A stretch of DNA of 64,000 nt from Xylographa opegraphella. Lineage: Eukaryota. Location of the stretch: positions 1-64,000 of the forward strand of contig JALDZX010000080.1 of assembly GCA_022813865.1 (NCBI GenBank). Reading direction: 5' to 3'. Of this stretch, positions 1 to 23,792 are shown piece by piece. Within the stretch, counting starts at the first letter, position 1. Each line of letters opens with the position of its first letter. The translations under genes were made by a program, and so were the position numbers. The notes under the pieces are model-generated. The model was not told the DNA's origin. It worked only from the letters and a program-made list of their open reading frames with translations, and did not search any database.

Positions 1-234
1 TAAACTTGCTTCCTTATATTATTCTAGGTTGAAATCGCTCACCTATAGCTGTGGTTCTAGGCCTACTTTTCTGGTGAGATAGCGAGCTGTAACACAGTTG
101 TTTTGAGAATTAAACTACCTTTAGCTTTAGACGTAACCGTATTATACTACAGCAATACCTCAGTCCCCTCTGCATGTTCGTATCCCAGTCCCCTCTGCAC
201 GTTCCAGCAATTGGATCATTATGCCACTTCACAC

Positions 235-1818
235 TCAAAACACCTTGAGAGGTTTCTTCTCGGTATAGAACAACCTCGATACCAGGATCATCGCCGACCC
301 TGCGAGGCACATGACGCCGCCAAAAACCTTCACGTCCAGCCAGCCGTTGGCCGAACTCTGCAGAATGGCTCCGCCGATGGGCGCGACGGTGAGGGTGGGG
401 ATCGAGATGGCAAGGAGCACTAGGCCGAGCCGGTAGCCAATCTCGGGCAGGGGCGAGACGGAGATGGGGAGGGCGCCGGAAAGACTGATGAAGGCTCCTG
501 ACGTGAAACCGAACATGATGGCGAAGCCAATGGCGATGGCCGAGTCCTTGGCGGGGATCCAGACGGCGAACAGAGAGATTCCGGAAAGGGTACAGGCGAT
601 GATGAACATATTCCATCTTCCGATGACATCGGCGCTATAACCGGCGACTAGACGGCCGAAGAGACTTGGGGTATAACCGTCAGCGTTCCGCAGCTTTTGA
701 TGTGGAGAGGGGCGGTAACAGGGCTGCGTGTCGACCTACCTTGTGGCGTTGAAGATGGACACCAAGTATTGAGCCAGCTCCTCCGACATGTGCGCCTCCT
801 GGAAACCCTGCACAGCCAGATAGACGATGGGGACGAATATGCCATAGGTCAAAACGAAGATACCCACCAGCAACATAACAAACGGGAGCTCTGTGAAGGG
901 TGCAGCAAAGCGGCTGGCCGGCATCTTCTTGGGTACTGACTTTGTTCTCGGACGGACTGTGAGGATTGCAATGATCTGCAGGCCGAGGATAATAAAGGCC
1001 GCAGTCCTCATGGTCCAGGGGTAGCCGGTGCTCTGGACCATACGACTGATCATGATGGGGAAGATGACGCCGCCGACTGATGAGCCTGTCACCATGATGC
1101 CCATAGCTGCTCCGCGTTTCTTGGCAAACCAGGTTGAGATGCAGGCAAGCGCTTCATCGCACAAGACTCAGTCAGCATACAACTTTCAAAGAAGGGGAGC
1201 GTCGGTCAAACTTGTCAGGCGTGTATAAACATGCAGCGCCGATGGCACTGCACACTCCCTGGGACAAGATGAACTGATAGTACGTGTTCGCCAACGACGC
1301 CATCATCAGCCCCAAGACGTGAAGAAGCGTCCCGCCAATTATGAGCGGCCTCGGCCCGTAGTTGTCGTATATTATGCCGACGACAGGCCCCAAGGCGAAC
1401 AGGAAGAAGAGTTGGAGCGCCGGAATCCAGGCGATGGTGCTGCTGGAGTAATCTTTCAGAGGTCCAACTTGGTAATACTGCTGGAAGCTGCCCACGCCGG
1501 GTGAAAGAGCATTGCTGTTAGTCCATCGCGTCACTGCTGGATGCCACGTAGCAAGAACCTAGGAAGGCATTGGGAGGAGGGGAAATCCGTACTGTTGACC
1601 CAGCCCGGACTGGAGAAGGAGCAGCACCACGCTCCCAGGACGACCAACCATGCAGTGGCGCCGCCATCGGGCGGGCCAGCGTCTTCCAATTTTGTGGCAT
1701 CGCCTGGCTTGTCGCCGGGAATTGGCCCTCTAGCGTCTTCGGGGTCCTGCTCAGTCTTGCCACCGAGATCGGACTCTGGCCGTGCAGCCTTCTCGGGGTC
1801 GGTCTCAAGGTCGTGCAT
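235..1818 (-). CDS. MFS transporter, monocarboxylate porter (MCT-like) family; probable cluster efflux pump; multi-exon
   Basis: Spliced ORF pieces give the family N-terminus PPDGGATAWLVVLGAWC, then GSFQQYY, IAWIPALQLF, DNYGPR, STWFAKKRGAAMGIMVTGSSVGGVIFP and many hydrophobic helices. ATG at 1818 (MHDLETDPEK), stop at 235. Confidence 0.93.
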
Positions 1819-2720
1819 GGGAGTGGTGTTTTGGGCTTTGTACGTGCTAGACAGGGTTAACACAAGTCGTATGATCACAGCAGCTGTGAAACTCGGTTGA
1901 ATATCCACGTATCAAGGCATGGTGATCGAATTGCGACCTAAAGAGAGTGATCTGAAGTCGAAGAGGAAACGGGAGAAATGAAAGAGTGTGGACGAAACGG
2001 ATTTAAATGAAATGTTTGACCTGAGGTTGATATTGCAACCAATCCCCCAGGTTCTGACAAATGCAATCAGTTATGCAAATTCGTGCAAGCGGTCGAGTAC
2101 ATTATTCAACCACGGTCTATACAGCCCTCAGAACAGGCAATTATTTACAATACAAGCAACAGCTGACTTTTGTATTTCGCATCGGTATTCCACTCGAAAG
2201 TGCGTCTCTACAATCAGTGAATGGGGAAGACAGCCTAAAAGCGGCAGATTTCCCTTCGAAAGTGCGCCTTGATTATTTTCAGCCAGTGAGGCAGACAGCC
2301 TAATAAAGGCAGGCACGAACAAAGAAGAATAGCGACATTATATAATCTTTTGATACAGCATTCTCTCCGACCATCCTGGTTTGCGTTAGGCGGTGGCACA
2401 AGTGCTTTTTTCTACAGGGAAGCAGACTTAAATCATGATGATTGTCTTCCCGCTACCTTGTTATTGAGGCCTGCTTACGTGATGCTCGATGAAGCCACGC
2501 CAGGAGTAGAAACATCTCAGAATGGGTATATTTAACACTTGTTGCAGCGTAGCTGCTATTAGAATGAGGGGGTTCAAATCGAACTTCGGGCGTTAGTAGG
2601 CAGATAATCCGCTCCGATCAGTACTTTTTTCCTGTTCGAGTTTAGCTTCTTCCACAGCGCTGCATATTTAGCGAGAGGTCCTGTCGCAATATGGGACCCC
2701 TATTTCGGGCCCATTATTGA

Positions 2721-2756
2721 CCGATGACCGAATGTTCGGATCGGCCGATCGAACAT
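2721..2756. promoter_or_regulatory. Candidate Zn2Cys6 binding sites in the MFS/TF divergent promoter
   Basis: CCGA-TGA-CCGA (reverse complement TCGG-N3-TCGG) at 2721-2731, directly followed by the near-perfect palindrome ATGTTCG(G)ATCGGCCGATCGAACAT at 2732-2756. Confidence 0.5.
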
Positions 2757-3230
2757 CATCCTGACCGAATATTATGTCCAATCAGGTGATGCATATGTAA
2801 TCATACGTGATTTTACGTAAGTTAGTTAACTTTAAAGTAGTTTATATAATCAACGTTATTTACGTAGCCTTTACAATATCATCACGTTCCTTATGCATTG
2901 TATTACACTGATTAGTCATCTGCAATTATGACATATTATTACATAATCTAACACATTGTAACAGGTCCCCTCGCGCTGGATCACCTGGTTGCCCCATGCC
3001 GAGCATACCAAGTAAAGCCGACTGTCTGGAACCAATGCAGGGCTCAGCCGGTATGGAACGTACAATACAGTGCATTCGAACTTGAGGTCCCCCATATCGA
3101 ATTACAAGACGTTGTTTGGTCGTATGTCGATGATTTACGTAGGAGTATTCTGATTTGAATACAAAGTGATGCCTCACAGTGCTCAAAGCCCACATTTTTC
3201 TTGGCTTATTAATTGATATCCAGACCTACC

Positions 3231-3313
3231 CACTGATAAAGGATTCTGTCACTGATAAAGAATTCTGCCATTCATACCACGGATAGAATGCTGCCACTGA
3301 TAAAGGATTTTGC
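3231..3313 (+). repeat. Three copies of a 19-bp unit containing a GATA element
   Basis: CACTGATAAAGGATTCTGT (3231-3249), CACTGATAAAGAATTCTGC (3250-3268), CACTGATAAAGGATTTTGC (3295-3313). Confidence 0.85.
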
Positions 3314-4236
3314 AGTTTAACCCTGCCAAGCTAAATTGGCGCTCGGGTATTGGCTCACCTACTGAATGGAAGCTTTCGCGGCAGTGGCCATGTCGGGTCG
3401 CGTGGGCCGAAAGACGAGGACGTTTGCATGTTGACGTTGAGAACTACAGCGGTCAAGTCGGGATAACTATCTACCCTTGCTTACCGAGGAAGCAGGCAAA
3501 TATGCCTGGAAAGCAACTATTTAACTTACCGTGATTACCGCGCGTAGCAGCCCTACAGGGTGCGAAATAGCAAGCACTAAGATAAGCGAATGACTTGTGA
3601 TAGGGCTGGTGTCAGAACTGCCGTCTGACAGCAAGGATGTAAGTCAAAGTCCCCTAGCGCTTTCAGCACTTTAGACCTCGAAGGATTTCTCCTGCAGGAC
3701 TGTCATGGATCAGGGCCGCGCGAACTTCGATGCAAACTCTGTCCATGGAAGGGCCGGACTGCGTCCGTAGAAGAACTTCTAATCCAAGAGAAACACTACC
3801 AGGTATACTATTACCCGGCTCAGAGATATATTGAGACTTTACGGGAATTATTCAGAGAGCTTGGTAAGTTATACTAAATATTTATAATGAGAAGCTGTTT
3901 GAGTCTTGGTACGATCGGGATTAACCTGATGCGAATGGGGTGTTTAGTAAATACTCGATACTCCGTTAATCCAATCATGGAACTACCTGACTTGGAGGCG
4001 GTCAAGCTTGTGTGATCCCTGTAGACCACCCTGATCGAACTAGTGTGATCAACATTTGTTAAGAAGGGGAAGGAGTGCCTTAGCTGATATAGGATCTGTC
4101 GTGTTAAATCTACCGCACGGACATTGACCACGAGCATCCTTTGAATGATACATTCAAGAGCCATGCAGCTCGTGGGTTGATTAAGTTACAGTCAAAAGAA
4201 AGGGAATAGAGAGAAAAAGTATAAAGAAAACGTATA

Positions 4237-5556
4237 ATGTCACATCGGCAGTCGTGTGATCGCTGTCGTCAGCAAAAGGTGAAATGCCTTCGAGATCAGG
4301 CTCAAAGAGGGGAAAGCAATTCTCTTTTTTCACGCCGAACTCCCTTTACTCGGTGCGAGCGGTGTACGAAAGCAGGCGTAAATTGTGTTTACAGCCGTAC
4401 GTGTTGCTTTGATCTCCCTATCCAATTCGTTTCTGTTTATTACATCTCGAGGGATAAATCGGAATAAGTCCCAGCTGATAAAGATCTCGCAGTCACCCCC
4501 ACTATAGCGGAACAACGAACTAATCGTCGCTCTGTTCAGACTTCAGTTCGAAAAGATACCGACTCCGGGTCTAGAAATGTGAACGGCACATCGTGGTTCG
4601 AGCAAGGCCTAGCCGGAGCAGTGTATCCGGGCGGGCCATCCCTGGGGGCCGACTTTATCGACCTGATGGGTCAGTTTCCCGGCGTTGGTGAAAGCGGGGC
4701 CGTCGCCGGCTTCAACGGCTGGGACAGAAACCTCCAGCCACTTTCACCAACTTCGTTAAACTGCTTGACAGTACCATCCGCGGCAGATGCGGTCCCCATT
4801 TCCACAGCTCCATCTACTACCGACGGTCGCGAAGACAGCGAAGACGTCGACGACGACAAAAGCTCTACCGACGGCCTGTTCCCACAGCTGACGTTCTTGA
4901 GCCAAAGAGCTACTCGGGCTATGCGTCGTCTTGTCCGCCCGGGCCGTGCGCCTCTGACCGTATCGTCGCCCGAGGTAAACGAGGCGTTGGAGAACACAAA
5001 TACCCTGATACGCATCATCAACAACATCATCACGCCACATCGTGACGATATCACCCTCGACCCAACCACTACCGATAAGGGGCTGGCATTCTCGGCCCTC
5101 GCTTGCCACCAACATCTCGTAGCCCTGTTTCGAGCTATCTGCGACGCCATACGTTGCTGCCTACAGTCCAAGAAAGATTACCAGCAACAACACCATCGGA
5201 GCCGACAAAATAGCGGCGTAGGACCGTCCTCGGTAGCCCAATTTGTCATGGTGCTTCAGCTGCTGATGCACCTGATCAACCGCATGGACCGGAGTCTCTT
5301 TCAGAACAATCCATCAGCATGGCACGACGCTGGGTTGTTCAACGGCGGCCATAGTACCCCGGTCACGCCCGACATGGCCCATCATTCTACCATAGACCCC
5401 ATACAGTCCGATGTAACGGCAGGAGACTCATCACCACACGGTGGCCTTCTCGTCCTTGTGCAGGACATTGTGGGGACGATACCCAACCAGCACGAGAAAT
5501 TGAGACAGGTCATTCAGAAGCTGCAGGCAGAGATGGAGCACTCGGAGCTTCACTGA
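4237..5556 (+). CDS. Zn(II)2Cys6 pathway-specific transcription factor (2 exons)
   Basis: Exon 1 encodes [12 protein letters not shown]...[20 protein letters not shown] intron at about 4397-4507 joins it in frame to the ORF ending at 5556. Confidence 0.92.
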
Positions 5557-6374
5557 TGGAAAGAATCACGGACGGACGTCAGAGAAAACGGGATTCATGT
5601 TTCACCAGTAGACCAATCTAGATCGCCATGCTGTAATTAGCGTAGAATTACAGAAACACGGTCGACTATGGGTACAGGTGTATCGACCAATCCCAGGAGA
5701 ATTGGGGGCCTCCGTGGCCCTGCTCGTCGAGACAACACCGTTGTTAGTATAGCTCAACTGGAAGTCGTTATCAGTGCGGGCCTATAAGCGATAAAATCTG
5801 GAGAATGCTGTTGACTCAAGGTGCATGAAACAATATAATCTCACCCATTTGAGGCTGTATAAATACACTACTAGAGTTTACGAAAAAGTGTAAAACTTCA
5901 GACCTTCGCAAGCTCAGGGGAATCTGAGTTCCAGTCATTTCGTATACTCATGAATTTAACTCCGTTAAATGCGGCGCTAAAAATGATTGGCTCTGCTAAG
6001 TGACATCACATGATCTCGGCCCGCCGATCCGGGCTTTCCCTTACCGCTTCGAAGACCCTGATTAGGCGGCTGCTAGTTAAATTAGCTTAAGCGCCTCGGA
6101 GACGGCCTATCACCATATTCTTTTACACTGCATTTACTCTGTCGACTTGGTCTGTATACACCTAAACATTTTCGACTTTTCCCTTAAACCCCGATGGCCG
6201 AGAAAGCTCAAAGGATGTTTGCCAGCTACAGGGTGCTTCTCAGCCAGGTTAGTTCAGAACAGATTCAACACAGCATAGGTTGCACGTCTTCATTTTTCTT
6301 TGCTGGTATATATGTTCGATCAAACTATATTCTACTCTCACCGAATTGGATATAATGCCTGTCGCCAAATCCCC

Positions 6375-7504
6375 TTAGAAGGCCATGCGCCGCTTCAAAA
6401 AGTCTAGCTGCCTGCTTAGAATGCTTTCCACATCTCCAAATACCCAATCAAGATGTCCCTTGCCCTTCAAGATGTCAAGCTCCTTTGGCTCTTTCATGTG
6501 CTCATAACACTCGAGCTGGTCCTTTGTGGGGCATGAGAGGTCGAACTCTGGCGTCACCATCATGACTGGCGTCGGCGAAATATACTGCACGACGTTCAGG
6601 ATGTTCCACGACAGGCTTTTGTAGTAGGTCTGAACGGAGATGCGGTTCTCGACGGGTATGCCGAGTCGCTCGAGAGCAGGCATCATCTCGGCGGGGAGCT
6701 GGAGGCCATTGGGAATGCTACCGTCCTCGTTGACATAGGGGAGGTACATCGGCTCTTCGCCGGCCAGGCGGCTGGCGCGGTCGTGTATGGCCAGCTCGAG
6801 AATCGGCCCGCGTCTTTCCGGATTGCCAGTTGAGTCGATCAGGGGCGCGACCGCGATCGCGGCTGCAACTCGCTTGCTGCAGTCGGGTTTCTCGTCAGTC
6901 AACTGGAACTGGGGGCGAGGGATACAAGCGAAGGGAGCGGCAAATAGACAGCAAGAGAGATCATGACAGGGATGAAGTTACGTACTCAAAACCTGCTGCC
7001 GCAAGGGTAACATTGCCACCAAAACACAGGCCCCAGAGCGCGATTTTGGTCTCATCGACTAAAGTGTTCTCTTTGAACCAGGTCACGGCGTCGTGGAGGT
7101 GTTCAGCCTGCTGTCTTGCGTCGATCTACGCGTCCGCACAGAGGCTCAGAGGTGATTCTCCAGCTGGAGACGGCCCCAGGTTCACAAAACTCACATCATT
7201 TCTTGGCTCTCCATCGCTGGCGCCTATGCCTTGAGGATCATAGAGAAGGCAAGTGATGCCATGCTCTTGAAACCACTTTGCGATGTCGGGCAGGATGGCA
7301 TCCTTGGGCATGTTGAACTACTCGGACGTCAGTCGATGGGTGCTTCGAATTAAGCACCGAGCGGCTGGTGGCATAGGTACGCACTCCTGGGGACATGATC
7401 ATGGCTGGGCCGCGTTTTGAGGCGGAAAACAGCCAGCCACGTAACGTCAGGCCGTCAAGGGTTTTGAAGTCGACATCGAGGCGGGGTAAAGCGCTGACTG
7501 TCAT
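6375..7504 (-). CDS. Alpha/beta-hydrolase-fold polyketide transferase/thiohydrolase (GrgF/af380-like family) with a Cys nucleophile; 4 exons
   Basis: [41 protein letters not shown], nucleophile elbow [10 protein letters not shown] (Cys codon 7024-7026), [14 protein letters not shown]-terminal GKGHLDW. Three GT..AG introns are readable. Confidence 0.9.
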
Positions 7505-7831
7505 TGCGTCCTTTCGGGAAAGATCTGAGGTGGAGACAAAAGCTCGGAATAGGTGCAGGTGCAGTCAGAGACACTGAGCCAGGCTGATTGTATAGGTAGA
7601 AAGCGCGGTATGTAATTTGTAATTACCAGGCGAAGGTTGATATAAATAAAAATACTTTTATACCTTTGTAATATCAGCGTAGCCGGCCCCATACTCTAGC
7701 TACCTATATAAAGCAAAAAACCCTTCAAATCCAGTAATTTTATATACCTTGCTCATATATGTGCAAAGTCGGAGTCTTGAGGCCGAGCTCGGCTACCGGT
7801 CCGGTCTGGCTCGAGTATCGCGACGTCGGAA

Positions 7832-7842
7832 TCGGAGGTCGG
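7832..7842. promoter_or_regulatory. TCGGAGGTCGG, candidate cluster-regulator site upstream of the hydrolase
   Basis: The identical 11-mer occurs at 9718-9728, and it lies in a CGG/CCG-dense patch at 7769-7850. Confidence 0.5.
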
Positions 7843-8386
7843 GGACTCGGTCAGCCCTGCGGCTATCACCTTAAGCCTTAAAGGTACCTTATCTCTTACT
7901 AGGTACCCTTACCTTAGGTAAGGCTACTGCTGACACGGGATGACACCGATGCCTCCCGACATCCCTGCAACCACCTGGAGGCGGCACAGGCGCCAAAGCA
8001 GTCTTAAAGCGGTACCTTAAGGCTTAGTGTGCGGTGGCGCGGCAAAAATTGCGCACAGATGGCCACGACGTAGCCTGAAATTACCTGATGCAATAGCCCA
8101 TACGAAGCATTAATACCTCATAGGTAAGGTAGACAGTAACGGGAAGCAATATCGTCGCCTACAGCTTCAGCAGCATCGGTGACATGCCGTAGAAAAGTCT
8201 GCTTGTTGGTAATTCTCAACTTACCGCGGGAGACCTGGCAATGCCACTTCTCAGTTGCTTACCCTGGAGGCCGAACAGTACAGCAATCACAGCATTTACA
8301 CCAAGATTGTGAAGGCGTGGCCACGTCAAGCTGGGTCTTCTATTGCGCCAATTATTTACTCAGCTACTTAACGATGTATACTCTGC

Positions 8387-9498
8387 CTAGTGACCCAGCA
8401 ATGGCACCACGACTTTTTTGGCATGCACCTTTCCACGTTTCATGTCGTCCATAGCCACATGCATGTTTGCGAATCCGCCATCCTGTATTTCCAGGGGATG
8501 GTGCCTGATGCTCCCATCGTGCAGCCAGTTCTCTGCCAGGGCAAACAACTGCTTGCCAAACTGCCTGTGCTCGGGTGAGGGAGGGCGCCCATATGTTCCC
8601 GTCATATGGGATCCGTCCCCCATAATGGCGCTGGCCAGAAACCAGTCAGCACGAACATCCCTTCGCGTATACTTCACAGTGGTAGCGATTGTCTCGAGTG
8701 CGATATAGCTGCCGCCGGAAGAACCGATGGCTTCATAGCACATCTTCATGGTTCCAGCGTCGGCGACGCAGTCCAGGACATATCTTAGACTGCTGTCAGT
8801 GTGCACACGAATATCAGCACCACAGGCGGAAGAATGGTAGTCGAAGCAGGCTGTGGCGCCATAAGACTCGCACAGAGCGTTGTTAGTAGGCGAACAGGTG
8901 ACAATGGGTGTATACCCGGCCCTGCGAAGAAGAGGTCAATGAGGGATAGTGCTGGAGGGCAGTCTGGTAAGTCCGCTCACAGTCTCAGCAGCTGCGTTGC
9001 CATGGTGCCTGTGGCTGTAGCACCTCCCGAGACGAGCACGGTCTCGCCCAAGCCCCCTTGCATTGCCAGCTCTAGTCCGGGGCCCTGAAAAAGAGCCAAG
9101 CCAGCTGTAGCCATAGAAAGCCCGATGGAACATGCCTGCGTGAAGGTGAAGGCCTCGGGGATGTGGCAGCTGATGTCCTCTTCCGCCAAAGCGAACTCAG
9201 CAAAAGCACCTTTTGTCTTGTCCGAGGCATCCAAGCCAAAGGTGAGGGCGAGTACACGGTCACCCTCCTTGAACCGCGTAACGCCTTCGCCCGCCTTTGC
9301 GACTGTGCCGGCAAAGTCACAGCCACCTAGGGACCCGGGGGCGGTGGAATAGTCAACAATCTTCGCGTCTCGTGGGTTTAGAGCGACCGCATGCACACGG
9401 ACTAGCATTGAGCCTCGTTTCGGAATGGGGATGTCGACATTCTCGACAAGGCGATATCCGCCTGCTTCGGCACCAACAAGAGCCTTCATAGTAGGCAT
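8387..9498 (-). CDS. Trans-acting enoyl reductase (LovC-like, MDR superfamily); 3 exons
   Basis: VRVHAVALNPRD, GCDFAGTV, FKEGDRV, GAFAEF, VLVSGGATATGTMATQLL, LRYVLDCVAD, GKVHAKKVVV. ATG at 9498 (MPTMKALVG). Confidence 0.95.
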
Positions 9499-9717
9499 AA
9501 AATTGGTATGAACTATTCTGCAAGAGATTACAGAGAGTAATGGCAGACAAAAGAAAGTATACGTCAATCTGAAACTTTTTTTTTGATTCTGTGGATTCTA
9601 AACCCAACTCCCAAATTCAGCTCAATTGCGCATCGGCCGACGCAGCTACGGGGTTGTCGGTGCATGTCGGTGCACTCGGCATGTTCAACCCGAAGAGAGC
9701 CGACATGGTGGAGCGGG

Positions 9718-9728
9718 TCGGAGGTCGG
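9718..9728. promoter_or_regulatory. TCGGAGGTCGG, candidate cluster-regulator site in the ER/PKS divergent promoter
   Basis: Identical to 7832-7842. ATCGGCCGA at 9632-9640 also matches the core of the 2732-2756 palindrome. Confidence 0.5.
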
Positions 9729-10053
9729 AGGTGTGGCACAGCATAACCACCGGTGCTGACATAAATCCAGACACCCAGTTTAGATCCAGAACCAGTACGG
9801 GTAGGGAAAACTTTGGAAATAATTCTTGGAGATTTTAAGCTCATGGGCCAAGTTAGGCTCCGACTCGGCATTGACTGCTCGAGGCCATTGGGTCGCATAC
9901 CTTGCTCACCTTATATCTTTTAGTCCTCGCTATTTCAATATTTGCTCGTCTAAGAAGTATTGAACTTGTATCATCTTGTCGACTTTCTCTATCCATTCGG
10001 TTTCAGGCCTGTTTCCTTTAGCCTTGCCCATCGCCCCTATCGAAGTCTTCACC

Positions 10054-13000
10054 ATGGGGAGCCAAGGAGTCGAGGGCAACTCCCTTTACTTCGCACGCGA
10101 GCCCATTGCGATAGTGGGCAGCAGCTGCCGTTTCCCCGGTGGCGCCACCTCTCCCTCCAAGCTTTGGGAGCTTCTGGAGAGACCTCGAGACGTTTTACAG
10201 GAAATTCCAGCCAGTCGTTTCAGCACTGAGGCGTTTCACCACTCAAACAGCCAGCACCATGGAGTAAGACCGCGTTCCCATATCTGACATTGGAACTTGA
10301 ACTCATGTGTTTAACTCGTTGGCAACAGAGCATGAACGTCAAGCACGCCTATCTTCTCGATGAGGACCCCCGCGCCTTTGATCGTGACTTCTTCTCCATT
10401 AACCCAAAGGAGGCTGAGGCTATGGATCCCCAGCAACGTTTGCTTCTCGAGACAGTGTATGAGAGCATTGAATCGACCGGCTACTCAATGCAACAGCTTC
10501 GGGGGTCGTCCACCGCTGTGTTCGTTGGATGCATGAGCTTCGATTACCAGTTCACTGCCATACGGGGCATTGACAGCCTGCCCCAGTACCACGCAACTGG
10601 GACTGCCGCGTCAATTTTGGCCAACCGCGTGTCGTACTTTTATGACTGGCGGGGCCCCTCGGTCGCTATCGATACAGCCTGTTCTTCGAGTCTAGTCGCC
10701 CTACACCAGGCAGTTTCTGCCCTTCGAAACGGAGAAGCCAAGATGGCAGTCGCGGCAGGCTCAAATCTTATCATTGGACCTGAGCCATTCATTAGCGAAT
10801 CCAAGGTTTGTTATACCACTGCCCGGTGCCGAGAAACTTTGGCACAATCTGACGATCAACACGCAAGCTCAACATGCTGTCACCCAATGGACGATCCTTC
10901 ATGTGGGACGCCGCTGCGGATGGATACACTAGGGGGGAGGGCTTTTGCGCCATCTTTCTTAAGACACTCAATCAAGCTATCGTTGACGGTGACCATATTG
11001 AATGCATTGTTCGCGGGACAGGCGTGAACTCGGATGGCAAGACGCCGGGTATATATATGCCAAGCCCCTCCTTAATTTTCCCTGCGGCGCGCTGAACACA
11101 ACCAATCTTAGGCATCACAATGCCGAGCTCCGAGTCGCAGGCACAACTTATCCGGGACACGTACGCCAGGTGCGGGCTCAACCCGGCTCGCGAATCCGAC
11201 CGCCCACAGTACTTCGAGGCCCATGGCACAGGCACGCCAGCGGGTGACCGTAAGTGGCATATTGCATTGTTTTCACCGCTTTCCTTGGGACTCATCCTGA
11301 CGGGTACTAGCTATTGAGGCCCGGGCCATTCAAAGCGTTTTCTTTCCCGACGAAAAGCATGGCCAGCTCATGGTTGGCAGCATCAAGACAGTCATCGGAC
11401 ACACCGAAGGCACTGCGGGAGTCGCCGGTGTACTCAAGGCGTCGCTGGCAGTCCAACACGGCCAGATTCCTGCGAACCTTCATTTCAACAAGCTTAACCC
11501 CAAAATCCAACCATATTACACGAACCTGCGTATTCCGACCGAGACGATGCCCTGGCCCGCCGTTCCGCAAGGATGCCCGCGCCGTGTTAGTGTTAACAGC
11601 TTCGGCTTTGGTGGCACCAATGCCCACGCTATCATTGAAAGCTGGAATGGCCCTAGCTCCCTCACGAACGGCCACGCGCCGAACGGCCACGCGCCCAATG
11701 CCCAGGCTGGACCTTTCCTCCTGTCTGCAAACTCGGGCCCGGCTTTGGCGGGAAGTGCGCGAGCGCTGGCCAGCTATCTTCGCGGAAGTCCTGATACGGA
11801 TCTCGGCCGACTTGCCTACACTCTGTTTCGGAGGACAGACTTCCCATTCAGAGCCGCCTTCTCTGCCACATCTGCGGAGCAACTTGCCGACAAGCTCGAA
11901 GCGGCTAAGGATTCTTTCAAGAGCAGCTCACGCACCGCAACCATTCCCGAGGTGCTACCACCCCGAATCCTGGGCGTCTTTACCGGCCAGGGTGCCCAGT
12001 GGGCTACAATGGGCAAGGAGCTCTATGGCGCTTCGAACCTGTTCCGTAGCTCTATAGACCAGATGCAGCGGAGTCTCGATTCACTTCCCGCGAAAGATCG
12101 CCCCGACTGGCTCTTAGTCGATCAACTTGACGCGCCGGCAGAGACTTCCCGCGTCGGCGAAGCGGCTGTTTCGCAGCCTCTCTGCACTGCTCTTCAAGTC
12201 GCTCTGGTCGATGTCCTGCGTGCCGCCGGTATCGAGTTCTCTGCTGTTGTCGGACACTCGTCTGGTGAAATTGGCGCCGCGTATGCTGCGGGATATCTCA
12301 ACGCCACCGATGCGATCCGGGTAGCATACTACAGAGGCGTTCACTCCCACCTAGCGCAAGGACCGGGAGGGAAGCGCGGAAAGATGATGGCGGTCGGTAT
12401 GTCCTTGAACCAAGCGACTGCTTTCTGCAGCGAGTTCGGCGGGGCGCTTGTCGTGGCTGCCAGCAACTCCCAAACGAGCAGCACGCTGGCAGGCAACGCC
12501 GAAGCTATTGAGGATGCCCACACTCGGCTGCAGGAGAAGGGTAGCTTTGCCCGCGTGCTGCAGGTTGACACGGCGTATCATTCTTGTCACATGAAGCCAT
12601 GCAGCACCCCGTATCTCGAGTCGATGAAGCAGTGCGGGGTCAAAGTTCAGAAGGGCCGCAGACAGTGTCGGTGGTACTCGAGTGTTTGGGGATCGAATGG
12701 CCGCATTCGGTCATTCGACCAGGCCGATGGCCAACTTCTCAAGGGCCAGTACTGGGTCGACAACATGACGCAGGCGGTGCTCTTCAGTCAGGCACTTGCG
12801 AGAGCGCTGAACGAAGACCAGTACTTTGACCTTGCTCTCGAAGTCGGACCGCACCCGGTTCTCAAAGGACCAAGCTCCGAGACTATTAAAATGTTGACGG
12901 GCCTCTCTCTTCCGTACTCGGGAGTTTTGAAACGTGGACAGAACGCGGTAGAGTCGTTTGCCGATGCGCTGGGGCTCCTGTGGACGTCTTTCCCGTCGCC

Positions 13001-16000
13001 ACGCCCCATGATCACCTTTGACGGACTACGCAGGGCGTTCCAGGGTGGCAAGTCGCAGAAGCTTGCTATACTGAAAGATCTCCCAGCTTACTCGTGGGAC
13101 CACCCTGGCCTCATCTGGAAGGAGTCGAGATCATCTCGTATCTTCCGTGCCCAGAGCCAACCACGCCACGAGCTTTTGGGTCATTCTGTTGCGTACGGCG
13201 ACCGTGACAAGCGCGAGGTGCACTGGAAGCAGCTCCTCAGGCTGAACGAGCTCCCATGGTTGGCCGGCCACAGAATTCAGGGCGAAGTCTTATTTCCGGC
13301 GTCTGGCTACCTGTCGATGACATATGAGGCCGCCACCCGCCTTGTCAACGATCAGCAGCCATTACGTCTCGTAGAATTGCACGATATCGATATTGTGCGT
13401 GCTATACGGCTCGAAGAAGATTCCTCGGGTCTTGAAGTTGTCTTCACTATTCGCGTTACGAGCCAATCTGATGACTGCATTGCCGCCGAGGTTGCCTGCT
13501 ACAGCGGTGCTGTCGACTCGGCTCAGCCTTTGGACACCCCTCAAGCCGGACTCACAGCCCACTTTACCGGAGGTGTGCGGCTCTGGCTAGGCCAGCCCCA
13601 CAACGACGCTTTGCCTCCGTGGACCAAGCCTCTGCTTCCCATGAACACTTTAGACATGCAGCAACTCTACTCAAGTCTGTCTAAGGAAGGCTTCAACTAC
13701 GCCGAACATTTCCAGGCCAAGTCAATGCTCCGGCGGCTCAACCGTGCCGTGGTGACCGTGTCCTCACCTCCTGAACCCTCTTCGATACGCGCCTGCATGC
13801 ATCCTGCACCCGTTGATACTGCCTTCCAAGGTTTGTTGGCTGGCTTCTCATTCCCGGAAGATGGTCGCGTCGGGAGCATCTACCTACCGACGCGGGTGGA
13901 GTGTGTCAGGATCAGCATGATGCCCTCGGAGTCGCATACCTCTGTCCTCACCGCCGATGCGACCGTGACCTCGACGGCTAGAACCACCTTCACAGGCGAT
14001 GTGGACCTGTTCGACGCGGCGGATGCGCACATGAAAGTGCAGATACGTGGAGTCCACCTCACCGCCGTTGGGCAACGCCGGGACCCCTGGCTCTACGCAG
14101 GCACAACGTGGGCAAGGGATGCCGACTATGGGATTGAGCCAGGTCTCGGGGCCAATCTTTCGGAAGCAGACCGGGTGTTATACGAGCAACTCTCACGCAC
14201 GGCTTACTTTTACTTACGCCAGCTTCGCAAGAAGATCCTGCCTCAGGAATTAATGCTGATGGGTAAGTATCGAAAACACATGATGACTTGGGTTATTGAG
14301 CATCTGTTCCCCCAGATCGAGGGTGGGAAGCACCCGGAAGTTCAGCCCGAGTGGAAAAATGACACGCTCGAGATGGTGCAGCAATGGCGGGCCAGCCAAC
14401 CATCGGACAACAATGATATGAACATCCTCCACGCCATGGGGAAAAATCTGGTCGGAATTGTCCGTGGGACCACTCCTCCCCTCAGAGTGCTTACGCAGGA
14501 TGGCATGCTCGACCGTCTGTATGTGGAAGGACTCGGTGCCCAGGATGGCAACGTTGATCTCGGCGCCATAGTAAAACAGCTTGCGCATCAGCATCCGCGC
14601 ATGCGGATCGTCGAAGTGGGAGCTGGCACAGGCGGTACTACACGGGCAGTTCTAGATGCACTAGGAAATCAGTTTACGTCCTACACATACACAGATATAT
14701 CTACAGGCTTCTTTGAAAACGCCCGTACCGTGTTCAGTCAGCATAGCGGCAAACTCGCTTTTAAAACGCTTAATATCGAAAACAATCCCGTGGACCAGGG
14801 GTTCGCTGAAGGAACGTTCGATATAGTTATTTCCTCGAACTGTTTACACGCGACGCGAAGTCTAGGGGAGACTTTGCGTCACTGCCGACAGCTCCTCCGC
14901 CCCGGTGGCCGTTTGGTATTGCTGGAGATTACTCGAGACTTTCTGCCTACGCAGCTGATTATGTCAACGCTCCCCGGATGGTTTCTAGGCATAGAGGACG
15001 GGCGAGTCTGGGCACCCACTGTCAGCGTCGAGCGATGGGACGAGCTGCTGAAGGCCAACGGGTTCTCAGGGGTTGACGTAAGCTCGACACCTTCCTTCTG
15101 TTCCGTTATTGTGGCGCAGGCAGTTGACGAGAAGGTACAACTCCTTCGTGACCCGCTTGCTGTCTCTCCAGCGGCGCTTCCGCCACTGGGCGACATCCTC
15201 ATCATAGGTGGTTGTGTCAGTTCCAAACTCGCATTCCACACTCAGGCAATCTTACAGGCTGCTGCTCCCTTCAAGACTGTCATCGTACTGCCTGGACTCG
15301 AAGGCATCCAGGGGCCCAAGGGAGTAGCTGTGCTCTGCCTTGGCGATCTGGAGAGCCCCGCGTTCCGCAATATGAATCAGACGAGATTCAGAGGATTGCA
15401 GGACGTTATGGAGACTGCAGAAGTGGTTTTATGGGTAACCTCGGGTGCGAAGTCAGGCAAGGATCCTGACGCCAATATTACTCTGGGACTATCGAGCACG
15501 TTGCGGGCTGAGCGCATGGACCTCAGACTTCAATTCCTCGACGTCGACGACCCGTCATCTGTTGACCCGTCCATGCTGGCAAAGATGCTTCTCCGTCTCG
15601 TCTTCCACGACCCATCCAAGACTGACGAACTGCTATGGACCCAGGAGCCCGAGCTTGTGCTGAAGAAGGGCGCCCTCTACATACCCAGAGTGCTATCTCT
15701 CGACACCGTTAACCGTCGGTCCGCCGCGAGGCTCCGGCAAGTCACGCAGGTGGCCAGCCTTGAATCTAAAGACACGGCCGTGGTGCTCGACGAGCGCCAG
15801 GGAGCATTCGAGCTGCAAGTTGTTCCATTTAGCGGTGCCAGAGAAGTCGAGATGCGCCTGCAGGTCACGGCTTCCTCGCTTCATACCCTGACCTGCGACG
15901 GGCACGGGCCAGTATATGTCTGCTTCGGTCGCGACCTGGCATCGGGAGACAAGGTCCTCGCTCTTTCGGGTGGAAACAGCTCTCTGGTTCAGGTTGCCGA

Positions 16001-17762
16001 GGATCACGTCTTGTATCGCTGGCAGCACGACAAGACGGCCGCCGAAGACACTGCACAGCTGCACCTCTTCCTGGTACGGTCACTCGTGGAACACCTGCTC
16101 CACGGCTCGAATGGGCCTACGTGGATTCACGGCGCACCGAGTGAACTCAGCGAGGCTATTGACGTAATTGCCCGCGAGCAGGGCGTCACCGTGTTCCAAA
16201 CCACATCGGATATGGCGAGGACTTCGGACGTCAAATTCATCCATCCCTACGCGAGCGAGGGAGATCTGCAAGAAATGTGTTCTCAGGGCCTGCAAAGCTT
16301 TGTCAACCTAGCGCGCCCGCAACACGGAACATTATCTGCGTTAATTCGTGCTTATTTGCCTGCCTCGGCCATCGTAAACAAGGAGGTCGAGGACCTGAGC
16401 GTCGGTTTGAGCCTCTCCGAACTCCGCAGCCTGGCCAAGCAACATCTTCACAGCGGCCGGCAGGTTCCCGCAGAGCATGTTGAGGTTATGGCCATTGACA
16501 AAGTTTCGACAGTGACAAGTAAGGAGTTGAGGCTCACAGCCGTGGTTGATTGGAGTACTGCCAATACACTTAGCGCCCTGGTCCTCCCTCTCGAGCACCG
16601 CGGGCTATTTGCTTCCGACAAGACATATCTCCTTTGCGGCATGACAGGAGACTTGGGTATCTCGGTGTGCCTGTGGATGGTGGACCACGGAGCTCGAAAC
16701 GTGGTCTTGACCAGCCGGAACCCCAACGTGTCTCCCAGTGCGCTTGACTACCTGTCGCGCAAGGGAGCCACCGTGCGACCTATAGCCGTCGACATTGCGA
16801 ACATTGACTCCCTCCGCACCACCTATGCCGACATTAAGTCTAGCATGCCGCCTATCGGAGGCGTGATGAACGCCGCCATGGTGCTTCGGGACCGTCTTTT
16901 TCTTCATTTGTCCTGGGAGGACTTTGCCGCCGTGTTGGCGCCTAAGATGTTAGGGTCCAAGAACCTTGACGAGATCTTTGGCGATGAACAGTTGGAGTTC
17001 TTTATCTGCTTCTCGTCCACGACTTCCATTGTCGGAAGCATTGGCCAGTCTGCCTACGCTGCCGCGAACTACTACATGGCGAGTCTTGTCCAGCAGCGAC
17101 TTCAGCGTGGCCTGGCTGGCTCTGTTATTCACATTGCCATTCTCACGGGCTTTGGATACATTTTCAGGCGGGATGCCGAGCATGCCGAGACCATTCACAA
17201 GGCTATCCTTCCGCGATTTGACAGGCAGTCAGAGACGGACCTGCACGAGATGCTAGCGGAGGCCATAGTTTGCGGACGCCCTGGCTCGGACCAGACCGCT
17301 GAGCTCATTACCGGCATCAGGACAGTCTTTCAGGGCGAGTGGCGCGACGACCCTCGGCTATCCTGCTACAGCGGCCAGCAACAGCTACAAGACGATTCCA
17401 GCCAAAAGCCAGCCGCTGGGTGCGTCAGCGTCGAGGCTCAGCTCGCCGCGGCCAAGGACCCGGCCGAGTGCTTGGTCATACTGGAAAAATGCTTCGCGCT
17501 GGCCCTGGGCAACTTGCTCGAGATCGACCCTGAGCAGCTGAACGGCAACATGCCAGTGGCCAGCCTAGGCATCGACTCCCTCGTGGCCATCCGGATCCGG
17601 GAGTGGTTCCTCAAAGAGATGGGCGTCGATATGCCGGTCCTGAAGGTCATGTCGGACAGCTACTCGATGTCGCGCATGTGTGACGATGTGCTTGTGGACT
17701 GGCGGAGGCTAAACAAGTCAGATGCAAAGGAGAAGGAAAACGCTCGCGCAGCCGAAAAATAA
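10054..17762 (+). CDS. Highly reducing iterative type I PKS: KS-AT-DH-cMT-(inactive ER)-KR-ACP
   Basis: [63 protein letters not shown]. c[42 protein letters not shown] region lacks the NADPH motif (reads WIHGAPSEL). Four short 5' introns, then one long exon. Confidence 0.97.
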
Positions 17763-18240
17763 GTTCTGCTTGGATTATCGGGGAAAGCTTATTAAGCCTG
17801 AAGTAGTTTCACTACATTTTATGCATGTTTACTTACTTTTATAGTACTTGGTGAACCTTATCCCGGCTCTGAAGGGTTGAGAGTTTCAAGGATAAATAGT
17901 CGAAGGTGATGAACGCGGCTTTTGTTCACCTTTACCAGTGTGCCATGATATACGTGCTGCGTTATACAACCTTCAAGAATGGGTGAGGTCGGAACGAAAT
18001 ACTATAGAGTTGAGCAATTGATATTTAAACTATATAGTGAAATGCACTGGCGACGCGAATCGAGGCTAGAATAGCCCATCATTATCCCCAGTCAATTCAG
18101 CAGTCTTCAGGGGGGGATTTGTAAAAGTTTAAATAAACGTACGTAGAACCGTGATTTCTGATATTGCAGTTTTGAATTTTGGGTTTTGTTTTTAAAAACC
18201 CTTATCGCCCGCCGTACGTGTAAGAATACATTTAACGAGA

Positions 18241-18267
18241 GCGCCGACGCAGGCGCGGAGCGGCTAG
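18241..18267 (+). mobile_element. Possible Helitron-like 3' terminus (hairpin plus CTAG)
   Basis: GCGCC-gacgca-GGCGC hairpin, 7 nt, then CTAG (18264-18267) at the end of an AT-rich tract. The stem is only 5 bp and the next base is C rather than the usual T. Confidence 0.3.
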
Positions 18268-19035
18268 CTTCTTTTGGGCTGTATTTATACGCCCCCCTAC
18301 CCTCAACTTAAAATCATTCACAGTAGAAATTCACGATCACTCTACTGTATTTTTAGTCAATATATAACATTACACGAGAAAAGAATGGTTGGGCAGCAGC
18401 GCTGCTTAGCAAACACAACCGCATGTCGCAGATGGCGCGTCGTAGCATTTTGAGTGTGGCCGTCAATTGTAGCAACCTCTTCGATCTCAACACCCTTCCG
18501 AAAATTATATATACGTGCATGATGGCGGAGAGTAAATATCATAGAGCAGAGCTCGTAGATATAGATGTATGGGAACACAGCATCCACCTCGTCGAAACAA
18601 ATACAATGGTGATCAGCACATTTCAACGAGTGGGAAGGAACCGTCTCCCAGATCATATCTTTGGATTCTTCCAACGGCTGGCTGATCGGCCTATCGGCCA
18701 CCATCCAGGCCTCCACTTCTCACACCATATCTGCCATCTTGACAAGTGTACTACTTCCTGCACTGGGCTTGCAGCTCTCCGTCTAAAAGCAGTGCATTCC
18801 GTCTCCCAAGTCCATTCGGGTAGCGTCGAGTCCCCTTATAGCTTTCATGTATTGCTCCTACTGGAAAGCCGGAGCAGGCGAGTGAGGAGGCCAGGGGAGC
18901 GGCGCAAAGCGGCAAACAGCTGGGGATTCGGGTGTGCACTGTGGCTGGAAGGCAACAGCCGGGGGACGTGAGTTGTGTCAGATACCTAATGTGGAACTAT
19001 CAGCGAAGGTTTCGATGATTTCGAGGAGCCGTTAT

Positions 19036-19095
19036 TTGTTGGGTTTACCTCCGTGGTAGAAAGCGTTGTTGGGTTTACCTCCGTGGTAGAAAGCG
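19036..19095. repeat. Exact 30-bp tandem duplication
   Basis: TTGTTGGGTTTACCTCCGTGGTAGAAAGCG x2. The minus strand reads TLSTTEVNPT-TLSTTEVNPT. Confidence 0.95.
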
Positions 19096-22000: not shown

Positions 22001-23444
22001 TTCGTCCAAGATTTCCAAACTCGGAATCACCGTCTCAACCACAGGCTACAGGGCATTCAGCCACACTCGACAGAAGGCGAAACTCGCGGAGGCAGTCGAA
22101 ACGACATGATTGGATTGTGGGAAGCCACTCACCACCGTAGGGTGTAGCGTCCCTGACCACTCCCTCGGGTTACTCGATGGGTCACATGAGATGATCGCTT
22201 TGCATGCAGGAGATGAGGCCTCCGGGATGCGACCACATGGGATCCGGGCACGAGCGATAGGATCGCATCTACGGCCGCAAGTCGGTCTGCTGTCTTTCCA
22301 TCGCACTGGAAATTCCAAGATGTATGTTTCTAGAATCTCATATTCCCGCCCGTGCAGGAGCTAAACCGTATTGAAGCGTGTCCGTCGACCCACTCATGGC
22401 TTCCTGCATCCTTCCATTTGAAGAGACAAAGCTTAAATTGTTCTCCGAGCAGCTAGTAAATGCAGGCCAGCTGGCACTTTATCCCAGTAACAGACAAGGA
22501 GGTGCACAGGACCCAATAGCAGGCTCAATCGCAACGGCACACACATTCTCGAGCTCGGTTGCTCTGCCCTCTCGATTCCAAAACATCTCTGCAGTTACGG
22601 TGGCAATCGCCAAATGCGCTCCGGGCTCTCCAGTCAGGTTGCATACTTGCTTCGAGAGATTGACTGATATGGTCCTTGTAACTTCTGTCCTTAATAGAAG
22701 AATCTAGTTCATTGGACGAGCTGCAATGAACCCACAAGCCCAATGTAACGCTGCATCTGCCTACTGAACTCGTGTTCGTTACCGCTAGGGGCCTATATTG
22801 TGCCGATAGCCTCATTTCTGACAGACCCACCAACCTTCTCCTCGATAACACTAGTATGCTAGTGCCTTCCTTCCGTTACTGACAGCCGTTGATCTTTTAG
22901 ACATAGCCCTTGGAACCTTCGCAGACTTCTTGTAGGCTCAAGGAGCAATTGTAGCGCTAGTCCAGGGTTATGGTTGCCTTCATTTGCGATCCAGCCGTGG
23001 GCTTCACAACTTGATGTTGCTCTCCTTACGACTGCCACAACCCGAAACACGAGGGATTTAATCGTCCGCAATCTCGTCACCCTAGAACTCGAAGCTGTGG
23101 AGGTACACGTATAAGATGGCTTCTCTCCACGCGTTCATTCACCTTGAATGTGCTTCCTACAGCAAAACCCTCGACACCACCTTCTTTCCGGCATCACGCC
23201 TCTCCCCTGCGAGCGATCTCAATCGGAAGGATATCAGTCAGAGAGATTGTGCGATTCTTCGTAACTCATGATGCCGTAAGTACTACCAGCCTGATCTCAC
23301 ACTTCTGAAGGACTTTTCCACAAGCCTGCATACAAACCAGCTTTCAACAATATATCTTTTCTGTAATACGACAACCATTCTCACCAGTTGTCATCCCCAC
23401 TACCCATAATGACAGTCTGGGTTCTTGACTGACTGGCTTGACAA

Positions 23445-23792
23445 ATGTATAGTAACAACGACACGCGTAACAACCAGAATTGCGCCAGCAACGTCCGGCA
23501 TAATTCTCACGGGGCCAGAGAAAACGCTAGAACTTCGAGGCAAGAAGCTCAACATCAGCGACGCGAACCACAACCTCAAAGGCCACCGCCCCGACCAGTG
23601 TCATCTCCCTATCCACCCAGAGAGTCCCAACAACAAATAATGCATCAAGCGGTCCAGCTCAACGCGGTACTCAGCGCGGCAACACAAGGACAGTCAGGTG
23701 GAGCAAGACAAGCCTCTCGAGAGCAGTACATCAGGAACTGGGAAGAACATTGGAGACAAATAAGTGACCGTACGGTACAGCAGAATGGTTAG
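23445..23792 (+). CDS. Small Gln/Arg/Pro-rich hypothetical protein
   Basis: 115-aa ATG-initiated ORF with an amphipathic C-terminal stretch (REQYIRNWEEHWRQI). No recognised domain and the start is uncertain. Confidence 0.45.
   Translation: MYSNNDTRNNQNCASNVRHNSHGARENARTSRQEAQHQRREPQPQRPPPRPVSSPYPPRESQQQIMHQAVQLNAVLSAATQGQSGGARQASREQYIRNWEEHWRQISDRTVQQNG

What the first reader, a model, noticed from the sequence alone, without database searches (positions are those of the whole stretch)
235..17762. Compact five-gene HR-PKS / trans-ER / transferase / TF / exporter cluster of the fujikurin-gregatin type
Seen: MFS, Zn2Cys6, hydrolase, trans-ER and PKS sit in a row and all look intact. Known: a PKS plus trans-ER plus hydrolase-fold transferase is the core of the gregatin (GrgA/GrgB/GrgF) pathway, and from memory the Fusarium fujikuroi PKS19 (fujikurin) cluster has a similar content and order. 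Inference: this organism makes a chain-fused polyketide that may be an uncharacterised family member. No tailoring oxygenase or O-methyltransferase is inside the window, so any such gene would lie left of position 1.
Basis: partly seen in the sequence, partly recalled or inferred. Interest (0 to 1): 0.8.

Follow-up and report, generated by a model that had tools for sequence, protein, structure and literature searches.

The report
Gregatin-type polyketide cluster in lichen fungus
A lichen-forming fungus carries close copies of the known genes that weld two fatty carbon chains into gregatin-like compounds, but with no finishing enzymes next to them and an exporter gene that looks broken, so this is a known kind of pathway in an unexpected host.

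Summary
The PKS (2485 aa, KS-AT-DH-MT-KR-ACP) is 84% identical to GrgA and 67% to fujikurin PKS19, and falls in a fully supported GrgA clade that excludes PKS19. The hydrolase matches GrgF (PDB 6LZH) at 267 of 293 residues with Cys115/Asp240/His269. So it is the gregatin core with fujikurin-like gene content. Two corrections. The MFS gene is not intact: 2 of its 3 introns lack a canonical splice site at the position homologs use. And position 1 is the contig start, inside an LTR, so the left side cannot be read; no P450 or Methyltransf_2 hit lies on the contig. The host is a lichen-forming Lecanoromycete (source name of the identical PKS: Xylographa opegraphella), and native Xylographa genes follow on the contig. 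Cross-class identities of 84-91% suggest horizontal gain, but a vertical-type topology was not rejected (p-AU 0.086). Likely product, if expressed: the chain-fused precursor, not gregatin A. Expression untested. The scan earlier noted GrgF-like hydrolases in another genome, beside a synthase with its own release domain. Verdict: new member of a known family, moderate interest.

The parts
1..94 (+). 3' end of a 231-bp LTR (ends GTAACA); the contig begins inside it
   Evidence: 40 of 40 scored matches at 91-100% identity, own copy included, of 95 candidates; 12 of 20 fetched copies are solo LTRs with a 5-bp target-site duplication
235..1854 (-). MFS (MCT-like) exporter gene, ortholog of the fujikurin efflux protein; probably impaired. 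Homolog-like exons 1818-1593, 1497-1216, 1151-740, 664-235
   Evidence: MFS_1 in three exons; 90.2% to Halenospora P0186, 89.0% to Diplogelasinospora P0187, 69.9% to fujikurin efflux protein P0237; intron 1 acceptor CCG, intron 2 donor ACAAGT, upstream start codon CTG
2542..2990 (.). Nested repeats in the divergent MFS/TF spacer: a 282-bp solo LTR (2682-2963, target-site duplication GGTCC) inside another dispersed repeat
   Evidence: dispersed copies at 73-87%; boundaries and duplication
4237..5556 (+). Zn2Cys6 pathway transcription factor, 413 aa, exons 4237-4396 and 4475-5556
   Evidence: six Cys in exon 1, stop-free splice; 46-59% to relatives, one of them HYFRA_00001649 next to the Hymenoscyphus MFS, PKS and hydrolase orthologs
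6375..7504 (-). GrgF-type cysteine alpha/beta-hydrolase (polyketide transferase), 294 aa, exons 7504-7385, 7317-7195, 7125-6986, 6876-6375
   Evidence: best PDB hit of all four exons is GrgF 6LZH; 267 of 293 compared residues identical, counted from the printed alignments; C115 in GLCFGG, D240, H269
8387..9489 (-). Trans-acting enoyl reductase (LovC/GrgB type), 347 aa, exons 9489-8981 and 8921-8387
   Evidence: ADH_N and ADH_zinc_N; best PDB hit LovC 3B6Z, E 2.9e-18 for exon 1; stop-free splice. Identity to GrgB itself not measured
10054..17762 (+). Highly reducing PKS, GrgA ortholog, 2485 aa, KS-AT-DH-cMT-(degenerate ER)-KR-ACP, no release domain; exons 10054-10263, 10329-10805, 10868-11048, 11112-11249, 11311-17762
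   Evidence: Pfam; 84.3% to GrgA, 67.3% to PKS19, 86.4% to Xylaria acuta; active-site motifs match GrgA; starred 100/100 clade with GrgA

Best explanation
A resident, five-gene gregatin-clade cluster in a lichen-forming fungus. Shown here: gene content, orthology, intact catalytic motifs. Taken from the published gregatin pathway: the one PKS makes a longer pentaketide when the trans-ER works with it and a short diketide when it does not, and the GrgF-type hydrolase fuses the two chains by a Claisen-type reaction. Inferred: with no P450 (GrgG, furanone ring) or O-methyltransferase (GrgD) beside it, the pathway stops at the chain-fused precursor or a spontaneously cyclised form of it (a fujikurin/CR377-like acyl-pyranone; that structure is recalled, not checked), not at gregatin A. 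The Zn2Cys6 gene is the likely switch. The exporter has lost two splice sites, so the product is not exported by this protein at normal efficiency and the cluster may be weakly used or starting to decay. The block was probably gained horizontally from a non-lichen ascomycete (about 0.65; donor unresolved).
For: PKS 84.3% to GrgA against 67.3% to PKS19, closer to GrgA in 7 of 7 domains; IQ-TREE places it in a 100/100 clade with GrgA and the Cadophora gregata PKS, PKS19 outside. Hydrolase 267/293 to GrgF with C115, D240, H269. Mechanism: PMC8902786, PMC12304814; roles of GrgG and GrgD: PMC10288003. No P450 or Methyltransf_2 row on C221; the P450 fused to a TF ortholog in a Fusarium beomiforme gene model (P0438) finds at best 27% identity over 404 aa in this genome and nothing in the window. 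Residence: a flank gene (29159-29983) clusters with proteins of two other Xylographa species; LTRs of genome-wide families sit inside and beside the cluster; depth of cluster contigs 165-169 against 162 for the flank (possibly the source reads). Horizontal gain: identities to other classes (PKS 84-86%, hydrolase 91%, MFS 89-90%) equal the 87.5-89.2% that the flank gene shows within its own genus; no other Lecanoromycete is named among the 120 listed of 739 PKS hits.
Against: The contig starts in an LTR 141 bases beyond the MFS stop, so further genes could lie across the break. No expression or metabolite data. A tree holding the window PKS with the five Eurotiomycete copies, as vertical descent would predict, was not rejected (p-AU 0.086); inside the clade classes mostly group together; GC3 of the cluster genes (0.59-0.73) lies inside the range of nine contig genes (0.49-0.89); many listed hits are unnamed and could be lichens. 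The MFS could still be spliced by alternative sites, as the public model P0188 does.
Confidence: 0.58

Rival explanations
1. A complete gregatin A pathway: the P450 and O-methyltransferase genes lie beyond the LTR at the contig break or elsewhere, and the lichen fungus makes gregatins.
For: Enzymes are closer to the gregatin set than to the fujikurin set; the left side is unreadable; some relatives have more genes between hydrolase and TF (Nemania KAI0097582 and KAI0097586; Phacidium has a P450 there, PMC10657286).
Against: No P450 or Methyltransf_2 row on the contig; none of 8 stretches read around P450 genes near the ends of 6 other contigs, or next to the second hydrolase, showed a recognisable remainder of this cluster by eye; the cluster-associated P450 P0438 has no close match in the genome; Hymenoscyphus orthologs of four of the five genes sit within five consecutive locus numbers, 1649-1653.
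Confidence: 0.18
2. A silent relic: the cluster arrived, lost its exporter and promoter integrity through point changes and LTR insertion, and no longer makes a product; the enzymes are intact only because decay is young.
For: Three lesions in the MFS gene; LTR insertion in the shared MFS/TF spacer; changes at near-invariant hydrolase positions R69Q, A126G, Q151G, M158I and PKS H761C next to the AT His.
Against: No stop or frameshift in 3539 codons of the other four genes; the share of changes at conserved columns is not significantly raised (PKS 35/169 vs 1080/6806, p 0.11; hydrolase 7/23 vs 99/652, p 0.07; MFS 3/50 vs 193/1409, p 0.14; rows are related, so these p values are rough).
Confidence: 0.18
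3. A fujikurin (PKS19) cluster making fujikurins A-D/CR377.
For: Same five gene types (PMC5468452); public annotation calls the protein 'Polyketide synthase 19'.
Against: 67% to PKS19 and outside its clade; hydrolase 71% to FFUJ_12241 against 91% to GrgF; TF and MFS order swapped.
Confidence: 0.04
4. DNA of a co-sequenced non-lichen fungus mis-joined to the lichen contig.
For: High identity to Xylaria, Penicillium and Helotiales proteins; the re-assembled contigs break at 19065/19067, so no single piece links cluster and native genes.
Against: That break falls on a perfect 30-bp tandem duplication (19036-19095), the two pieces abut and have the same depth (164.9, 162.1); genome-wide LTR families lie inside the cluster.
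Confidence: 0.02

Closest known systems
Gregatin A cluster (grg) of Penicillium sp. sh18: GrgA (BCA42568), GrgB, GrgF (PDB 6LZH)
   Same: PKS 84.3% with the same domains and motifs; hydrolase 91%, same length, Cys-Asp-His at the same positions; adjacent LovC-type trans-ER
   Different: No P450 (GrgG) or O-methyltransferase (GrgD) candidate on the contig; exporter splice sites damaged; lichen-forming host; four changes at near-invariant hydrolase positions
Fujikurin (PKS19) cluster of Fusarium fujikuroi, CCT72377-CCT72381
   Same: Five genes: HR-PKS, ER, hydrolase, transporter, TF; PKS-ER-hydrolase adjacent
   Different: PKS 67%, hydrolase 71%, MFS 70%; separate clade; TF and MFS swapped
Uncharacterised gregatin-clade clusters of Xylaria, Nemania, Purpureocillium, Hymenoscyphus, Leptodophora, Trichoderma, Kalmusia and the gregatin producer Cadophora gregata
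   Same: PKS 74-86%, hydrolase up to 91%, MFS up to 90%; neighbouring accession numbers show the same core
   Different: All named ones are non-lichen fungi; gene order and extra genes vary
Fujikurin-like clusters of Sbaraini et al. 2017 (OpPKS8) and the relatives with a C-terminal reductase domain (Trypethelium, Chaenotheca, Talaromyces)
   Same: Same PKS/ER/hydrolase family, proposed there to spread horizontally
   Different: OpPKS8 carries an O-methyltransferase, a second hydrolase and a monooxygenase; the reductase-domain PKSs are about 2830 aa and 56-64% identical, a separate clade

Membership tests
Gregatin-type chain-fusing core (GrgA/GrgB/GrgF) | HR-PKS orthologous to GrgA, KS-AT-DH-MT-KR-ACP with inactive ER and no release domain | tested here: met
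   84.3%; domains; motifs; 100/100 clade
Gregatin-type chain-fusing core (GrgA/GrgB/GrgF) | Adjacent intact trans-acting enoyl reductase | tested here: met
   347 aa stop-free; best PDB hit LovC; identity to GrgB not measured
Gregatin-type chain-fusing core (GrgA/GrgB/GrgF) | GrgF-type hydrolase with Cys nucleophile and Asp/His | tested here: met
   267/293 to 6LZH; C115, D240, H269 invariant in 21 of 21 homologs. That these three form the triad is recalled from the primary paper, which was not held
Gregatin-type chain-fusing core (GrgA/GrgB/GrgF) | Forms two chains and fuses them | not testable with these tools
   needs expression and chemistry
Complete gregatin A cluster | P450 GrgG (furanone formation) in the cluster | tested here: inconclusive
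   0 of 88 P450 rows on C221; cluster-associated P450 P0438 best 27% in genome; but contig starts in an LTR and no true GrgG query was available
Complete gregatin A cluster | O-methyltransferase GrgD in the cluster | tested here: inconclusive
   0 of 13 Methyltransf_2 rows on C221; 0 of 62 intergenic frames with a Pfam hit; family of GrgD not verified
Fujikurin (PKS19) cluster | Five genes PKS, ER, hydrolase, transporter, TF | tested here: met
   against PMC5468452
Fujikurin (PKS19) cluster | PKS in the PKS19 clade | tested here: not met
   67.3%; separated from PKS19 by a 100/100 branch
Fujikurin (PKS19) cluster | Order PKS-ER-hydrolase-transporter-TF (by accession numbers CCT72377-81) | tested here: not met
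   window order is PKS-ER-hydrolase-TF-MFS
Fujikurin (PKS19) cluster | Functional efflux protein | tested here: inconclusive
   ortholog present (69.9%) but 2 of 3 introns non-canonical at homolog positions; no RNA to show the splicing

The most novel reading that the evidence does not exclude
A wood-dwelling lichen fungus recently took up the gregatin core from a non-lichen wood or plant fungus and uses it, without the P450 and methyltransferase and with a dead exporter, to make and retain an undescribed chain-fused polyketide; the four changes at near-invariant hydrolase positions shift what is fused. This would be a lichen metabolite class not linked to lichens in the papers searched, and a snapshot of a cluster being trimmed after transfer.
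Probability: 0.2. Interest if true: 0.62.

Novelty: new member of a known kind. Interest (0 to 1): 0.36.

Why it matters
The chain-fusing chemistry is already described, so the cluster adds no new mechanism. Its value is as a natural minimal version: GrgA/GrgB/GrgF-like enzymes at 84-91% identity without tailoring genes, which lets one ask what the bare core releases and how gregatins and fujikurins diverge. It is also a candidate case of fungus-to-fungus transfer of a whole biosynthetic cluster into a lichen-forming lineage, with LTR insertions and splice-site loss that date early decay. Practical point: genome-mining labels ('PKS19', 'intact exporter') are misleading here.

Tried and rejected
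Left neighbour: the window is the contig start; two pattern searches for the other junction of the LTR, using the expected target-site duplication, found 0 matches, without a positive control, so they show nothing. Expression: no RNA holder listed. Two other runs of the same study held only short seed matches (9 and 3 records laid); no proof of absence. Metagenome scan with the hydrolase gave 2 loci of 124 pattern matches, neither with a P450 or O-methyltransferase recognisable in the ORF list. Ten stretches of G000 were read (8 around P450 genes or the second hydrolase on other contigs, 1 extension of C232, 1 the far end of C221): no remainder of the cluster seen. Second copies: the genome holds one more distant hydrolase (34%, C178, beside another PKS), no close second MFS (next best 45%), ER (41%) or PKS (41% or less over long matches). 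Fold of the public MFS model without alignment failed (pLDDT 40.9); not used. Relaxed-selection tests were not significant. Composition gave no sign of foreign origin. Catalase-peroxidase as a vertical control gave no identity figure and was dropped. ESM Atlas calls (72, 93) only confirmed P450 and MDR families. AU test did not reject vertical-type grouping. The FastTree run (57 rows) put the PKS beside unnamed metagenome proteins and Xylaria, but the careful tree (23 rows; unnamed, partial and long-branch rows left out) leaves that node open, so no donor is named. The primary gregatin paper was not held. Earlier-finding look-ups by place and by sequence were empty.
Full report
Observation. 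Built by hand from the sequence: MFS on the minus strand ending at 235; Zn2Cys6 factor 4237-5556 (413 aa); hydrolase 7504-6375 (294 aa); trans-ER 9489-8387 (347 aa); PKS 10054-17762 (2485 aa). The last four have 9 of 9 introns with GT..AG ends and no internal stop. Pfam gives KS, AT, DH, methyltransferase, KR and ACP for the PKS, MDR domains for the ER and MFS_1 for the transporter. The KS Cys and two His, AT Ser and His, DH His and Asp, MT, KR Tyr and ACP Ser motifs match GrgA; the ER region is degenerate.

The exporter is not intact. Aligned with ten homologs, the MFS protein needs intron 1 to end at 1498 and intron 2 to begin at 1215. The first site reads CCG, the second ACAAGT. One homolog model that reads through intron 2 has Gly where the window has Asp, which fits a GT or GC donor there. 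Every in-frame canonical alternative that I enumerated inserts, deletes or replaces residues in the conserved first half; the public model P0188 does both (13-residue insert, 11 residues replaced). The codon matching the homologs' start Met is CTG. Contigs re-assembled from run X1, which may be the source of this DNA, show no other letter over 68-2627. That the protein is impaired is an inference; no RNA was available.

What lies left. The window is bases 1-64000 of contig C221 (69,005 bases). Bases 1-94 are the 3' end of a 231-bp LTR; 12 of 20 fetched copies are solo LTRs with a 5-bp duplication. So nothing can be read left of position 1. On the contig, 0 of 88 P450 rows and 0 of 13 Methyltransf_2 rows fall (only first-look candidates are scored), and 0 of 62 intergenic frames hit Pfam at E 0.05. 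A P450 that a Fusarium beomiforme model fuses to the TF ortholog has as best match in this genome 27% over 404 residues, on another contig, and no remnant in the window. It is not shown to be GrgG.

Identity of the enzymes. All four hydrolase exons find GrgF (PDB 6LZH) first; I count 32/40, 40/41, 41/46 and 154/166 identical, 267 of 293. It is 71% to the fujikurin transferase model FFUJ_12241 and 91% to a Nemania protein. Cys115, Asp240 and His269 are present and invariant in 21 of 21 homologs; their being the triad is recalled. The PKS is 84.3% to GrgA (BCA42568), 76.2% to the Cadophora gregata PKS, 86.4% to Xylaria acuta and 67.3% to PKS19 (CCT72377), and closer to GrgA than to PKS19 in 7 of 7 domains. 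An IQ-TREE tree of 23 full-length proteins puts it in a 100/100 clade of 17 with GrgA, with PKS19 outside; its place inside that clade is open. The ER's best solved relative is LovC; GrgB was not available.

Synteny. Fusarium fujikuroi has PKS, ER, hydrolase, transporter, TF as CCT72377-81 (PMC5468452, section 10 part 1 and passages). The window has the same content with TF and MFS swapped. Accession numbers show the same core in Hymenoscyphus (TF 1649, MFS 1650, PKS 1651, hydrolase 1653) and Purpureocillium (PKS OAQ77095, hydrolase OAQ77097).

Host. The PKS and MFS match proteins that the source names Xylographa opegraphella, a Lecanoromycete; that it is lichen-forming follows from PMC13062703 (passages) and my own knowledge. 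A flank gene at 29159-29983 clusters with proteins of X. soralifera and X. trunciseda at 87.5-89.2%; three other flank proteins were singletons, one clustered with an unrelated fragment and one was not in the collection. Cluster and flank have the same depth in X1, and the break between re-assembled pieces sits on a 30-bp tandem duplication. LTRs of genome-wide families lie in and beside the cluster. Contamination is unlikely.

Origin. For horizontal gain: identities to fungi of other classes are as high as the flank gene's within its genus; no other Lecanoromycete is named among the 120 listed of 739 PKS hits, and the lichen-formers that are named (Trypethelium, Bathelium, Chaenotheca) carry the longer reductase-domain form at 62-64%; the family has been proposed to move horizontally (PMC5468452). 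Against: holding the window PKS with five Eurotiomycete copies is not rejected (p-AU 0.086), classes mostly group together in the clade, GC3 is unremarkable, many hits are unnamed, and the whole family is conserved across classes (GrgA to Xylaria 83.8%). I put horizontal gain at about 0.65 and name no donor.

How it most likely works. In the gregatin pathway one PKS makes a pentaketide with the trans-ER and a diketide without it, and GrgF fuses them (PMC8902786, passages; PMC8948627, passages) by a Claisen-type reaction (PMC12304814, passages); GrgG then forms the furanone and GrgD methylates (PMC10288003, passages). With 84-91% identity and intact motifs, the window enzymes very likely do the first three steps (inferred). 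Lacking the last two genes nearby, the product would be the fused precursor or a cyclised form; its likeness to fujikurin/CR377 is recalled, not checked (PMC9089377, introduction and passages, gave no structure). Whether the cluster is used is open: the damaged exporter, the LTR in the MFS/TF spacer, four changes at near-invariant hydrolase positions (R69Q, A126G, Q151G, M158I) and PKS H761C point to early decay, but no stop has appeared in the four other genes and tests for relaxed selection were not significant. Gregatins inhibit aspects of bacterial quorum sensing (PMC9296082, abstract) and CR377 is antifungal (PMC5468452), so an antimicrobial role on wood is plausible speculation.

What is in print. 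The core chemistry is (Wang et al. 2020, not held; seen only through citing papers). Similar clusters are reported in Ophiostoma and Phacidium (PMC10657286, passages). I found no report of this cluster in a lichen: 'lichen' + 'gregatin' gave 6 papers, none on this by title (listing only); 'Xylographa' + PKS terms (listing); no occurrence of gregatin or fujikurin in the main text of PMC13062703 or PMC12136951 or in the one held supplement of the former. Its BGC network figures and other supplements could not be seen and may include this cluster. The scan's earlier notes e1-7467696 and e1-7467697 concern GrgF-like hydrolases beside a PKS with its own reductive release domain in another genome; that fits the separate reductase-domain clade in my trees and did not change my reading.

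Verdict. Observation partly confirmed (exporter damaged; left side unreadable). Interpretation supported and sharpened: a gregatin-clade core with fujikurin-like content. It works like the GrgA/B/F system; it is not a PKS19 ortholog, and membership of the complete gregatin A pathway is unresolved. New member of a known kind; interest 0.36.

Noticed in passing
window 2682-2963 and 1-94: Two different solo-LTR families; the first has a perfect GGTCC target-site duplication and is nested in a third repeat; many copies elsewhere carry C-to-T and G-to-A changes that look like RIP.
   Followed up: partly
window 17763-24660: About 7 kb without a Pfam hit (39 frames) and single-copy in the genome between the PKS and the first housekeeping gene; holds a perfect 30-bp tandem duplication at 19036-19095.
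   Followed up: partly
window 10054-10263: The public model P0001 (2414 aa) lacks PKS exon 1; the 2485-aa model aligns with GrgA from residue 1.
   Followed up: yes
window 9634-9730 and 7770-7850: Runs of closely spaced CGG triplets in the divergent ER/PKS spacer and upstream of the hydrolase, possible Zn2Cys6 sites; no chance control run.
   Followed up: no
L009 1-15100: A metagenome contig with a related PKS and GrgF-type hydrolase divergently arranged, with no tblastn match to the trans-ER, TF or MFS in 20 kb, followed by an RTA1-like frame and another Zn2Cys6-like frame (those two labels are by eye).
   Followed up: no
G000:C178:84000-100000 (L021, L022): A second cluster with a reducing PKS, a distant hydrolase paralog (34%), an FAD-oxidase-like frame, a P450 and a short-chain-dehydrogenase-like frame.
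   Followed up: no
G000:C190:20500-50400: The next-closest PKS (36-59% to GrgA by segment) lies with a trans-ER paralog (41%) and a Methyltransf_2 gene within 30 kb.
   Followed up: no
window 24665-64000: Ordinary genes follow: homogentisate dioxygenase, alpha-glucosidase, class II tRNA synthetase, nucleoside hydrolase, Rox3, bHLH factor, FAD oxidoreductase; a catalase-peroxidase lies just past the window end.
   Followed up: partly
P0438: A Fusarium beomiforme gene model fuses the TF ortholog to a P450, probably two neighbouring genes, showing that some clusters of this family carry a P450 directly downstream of the TF.
   Followed up: partly
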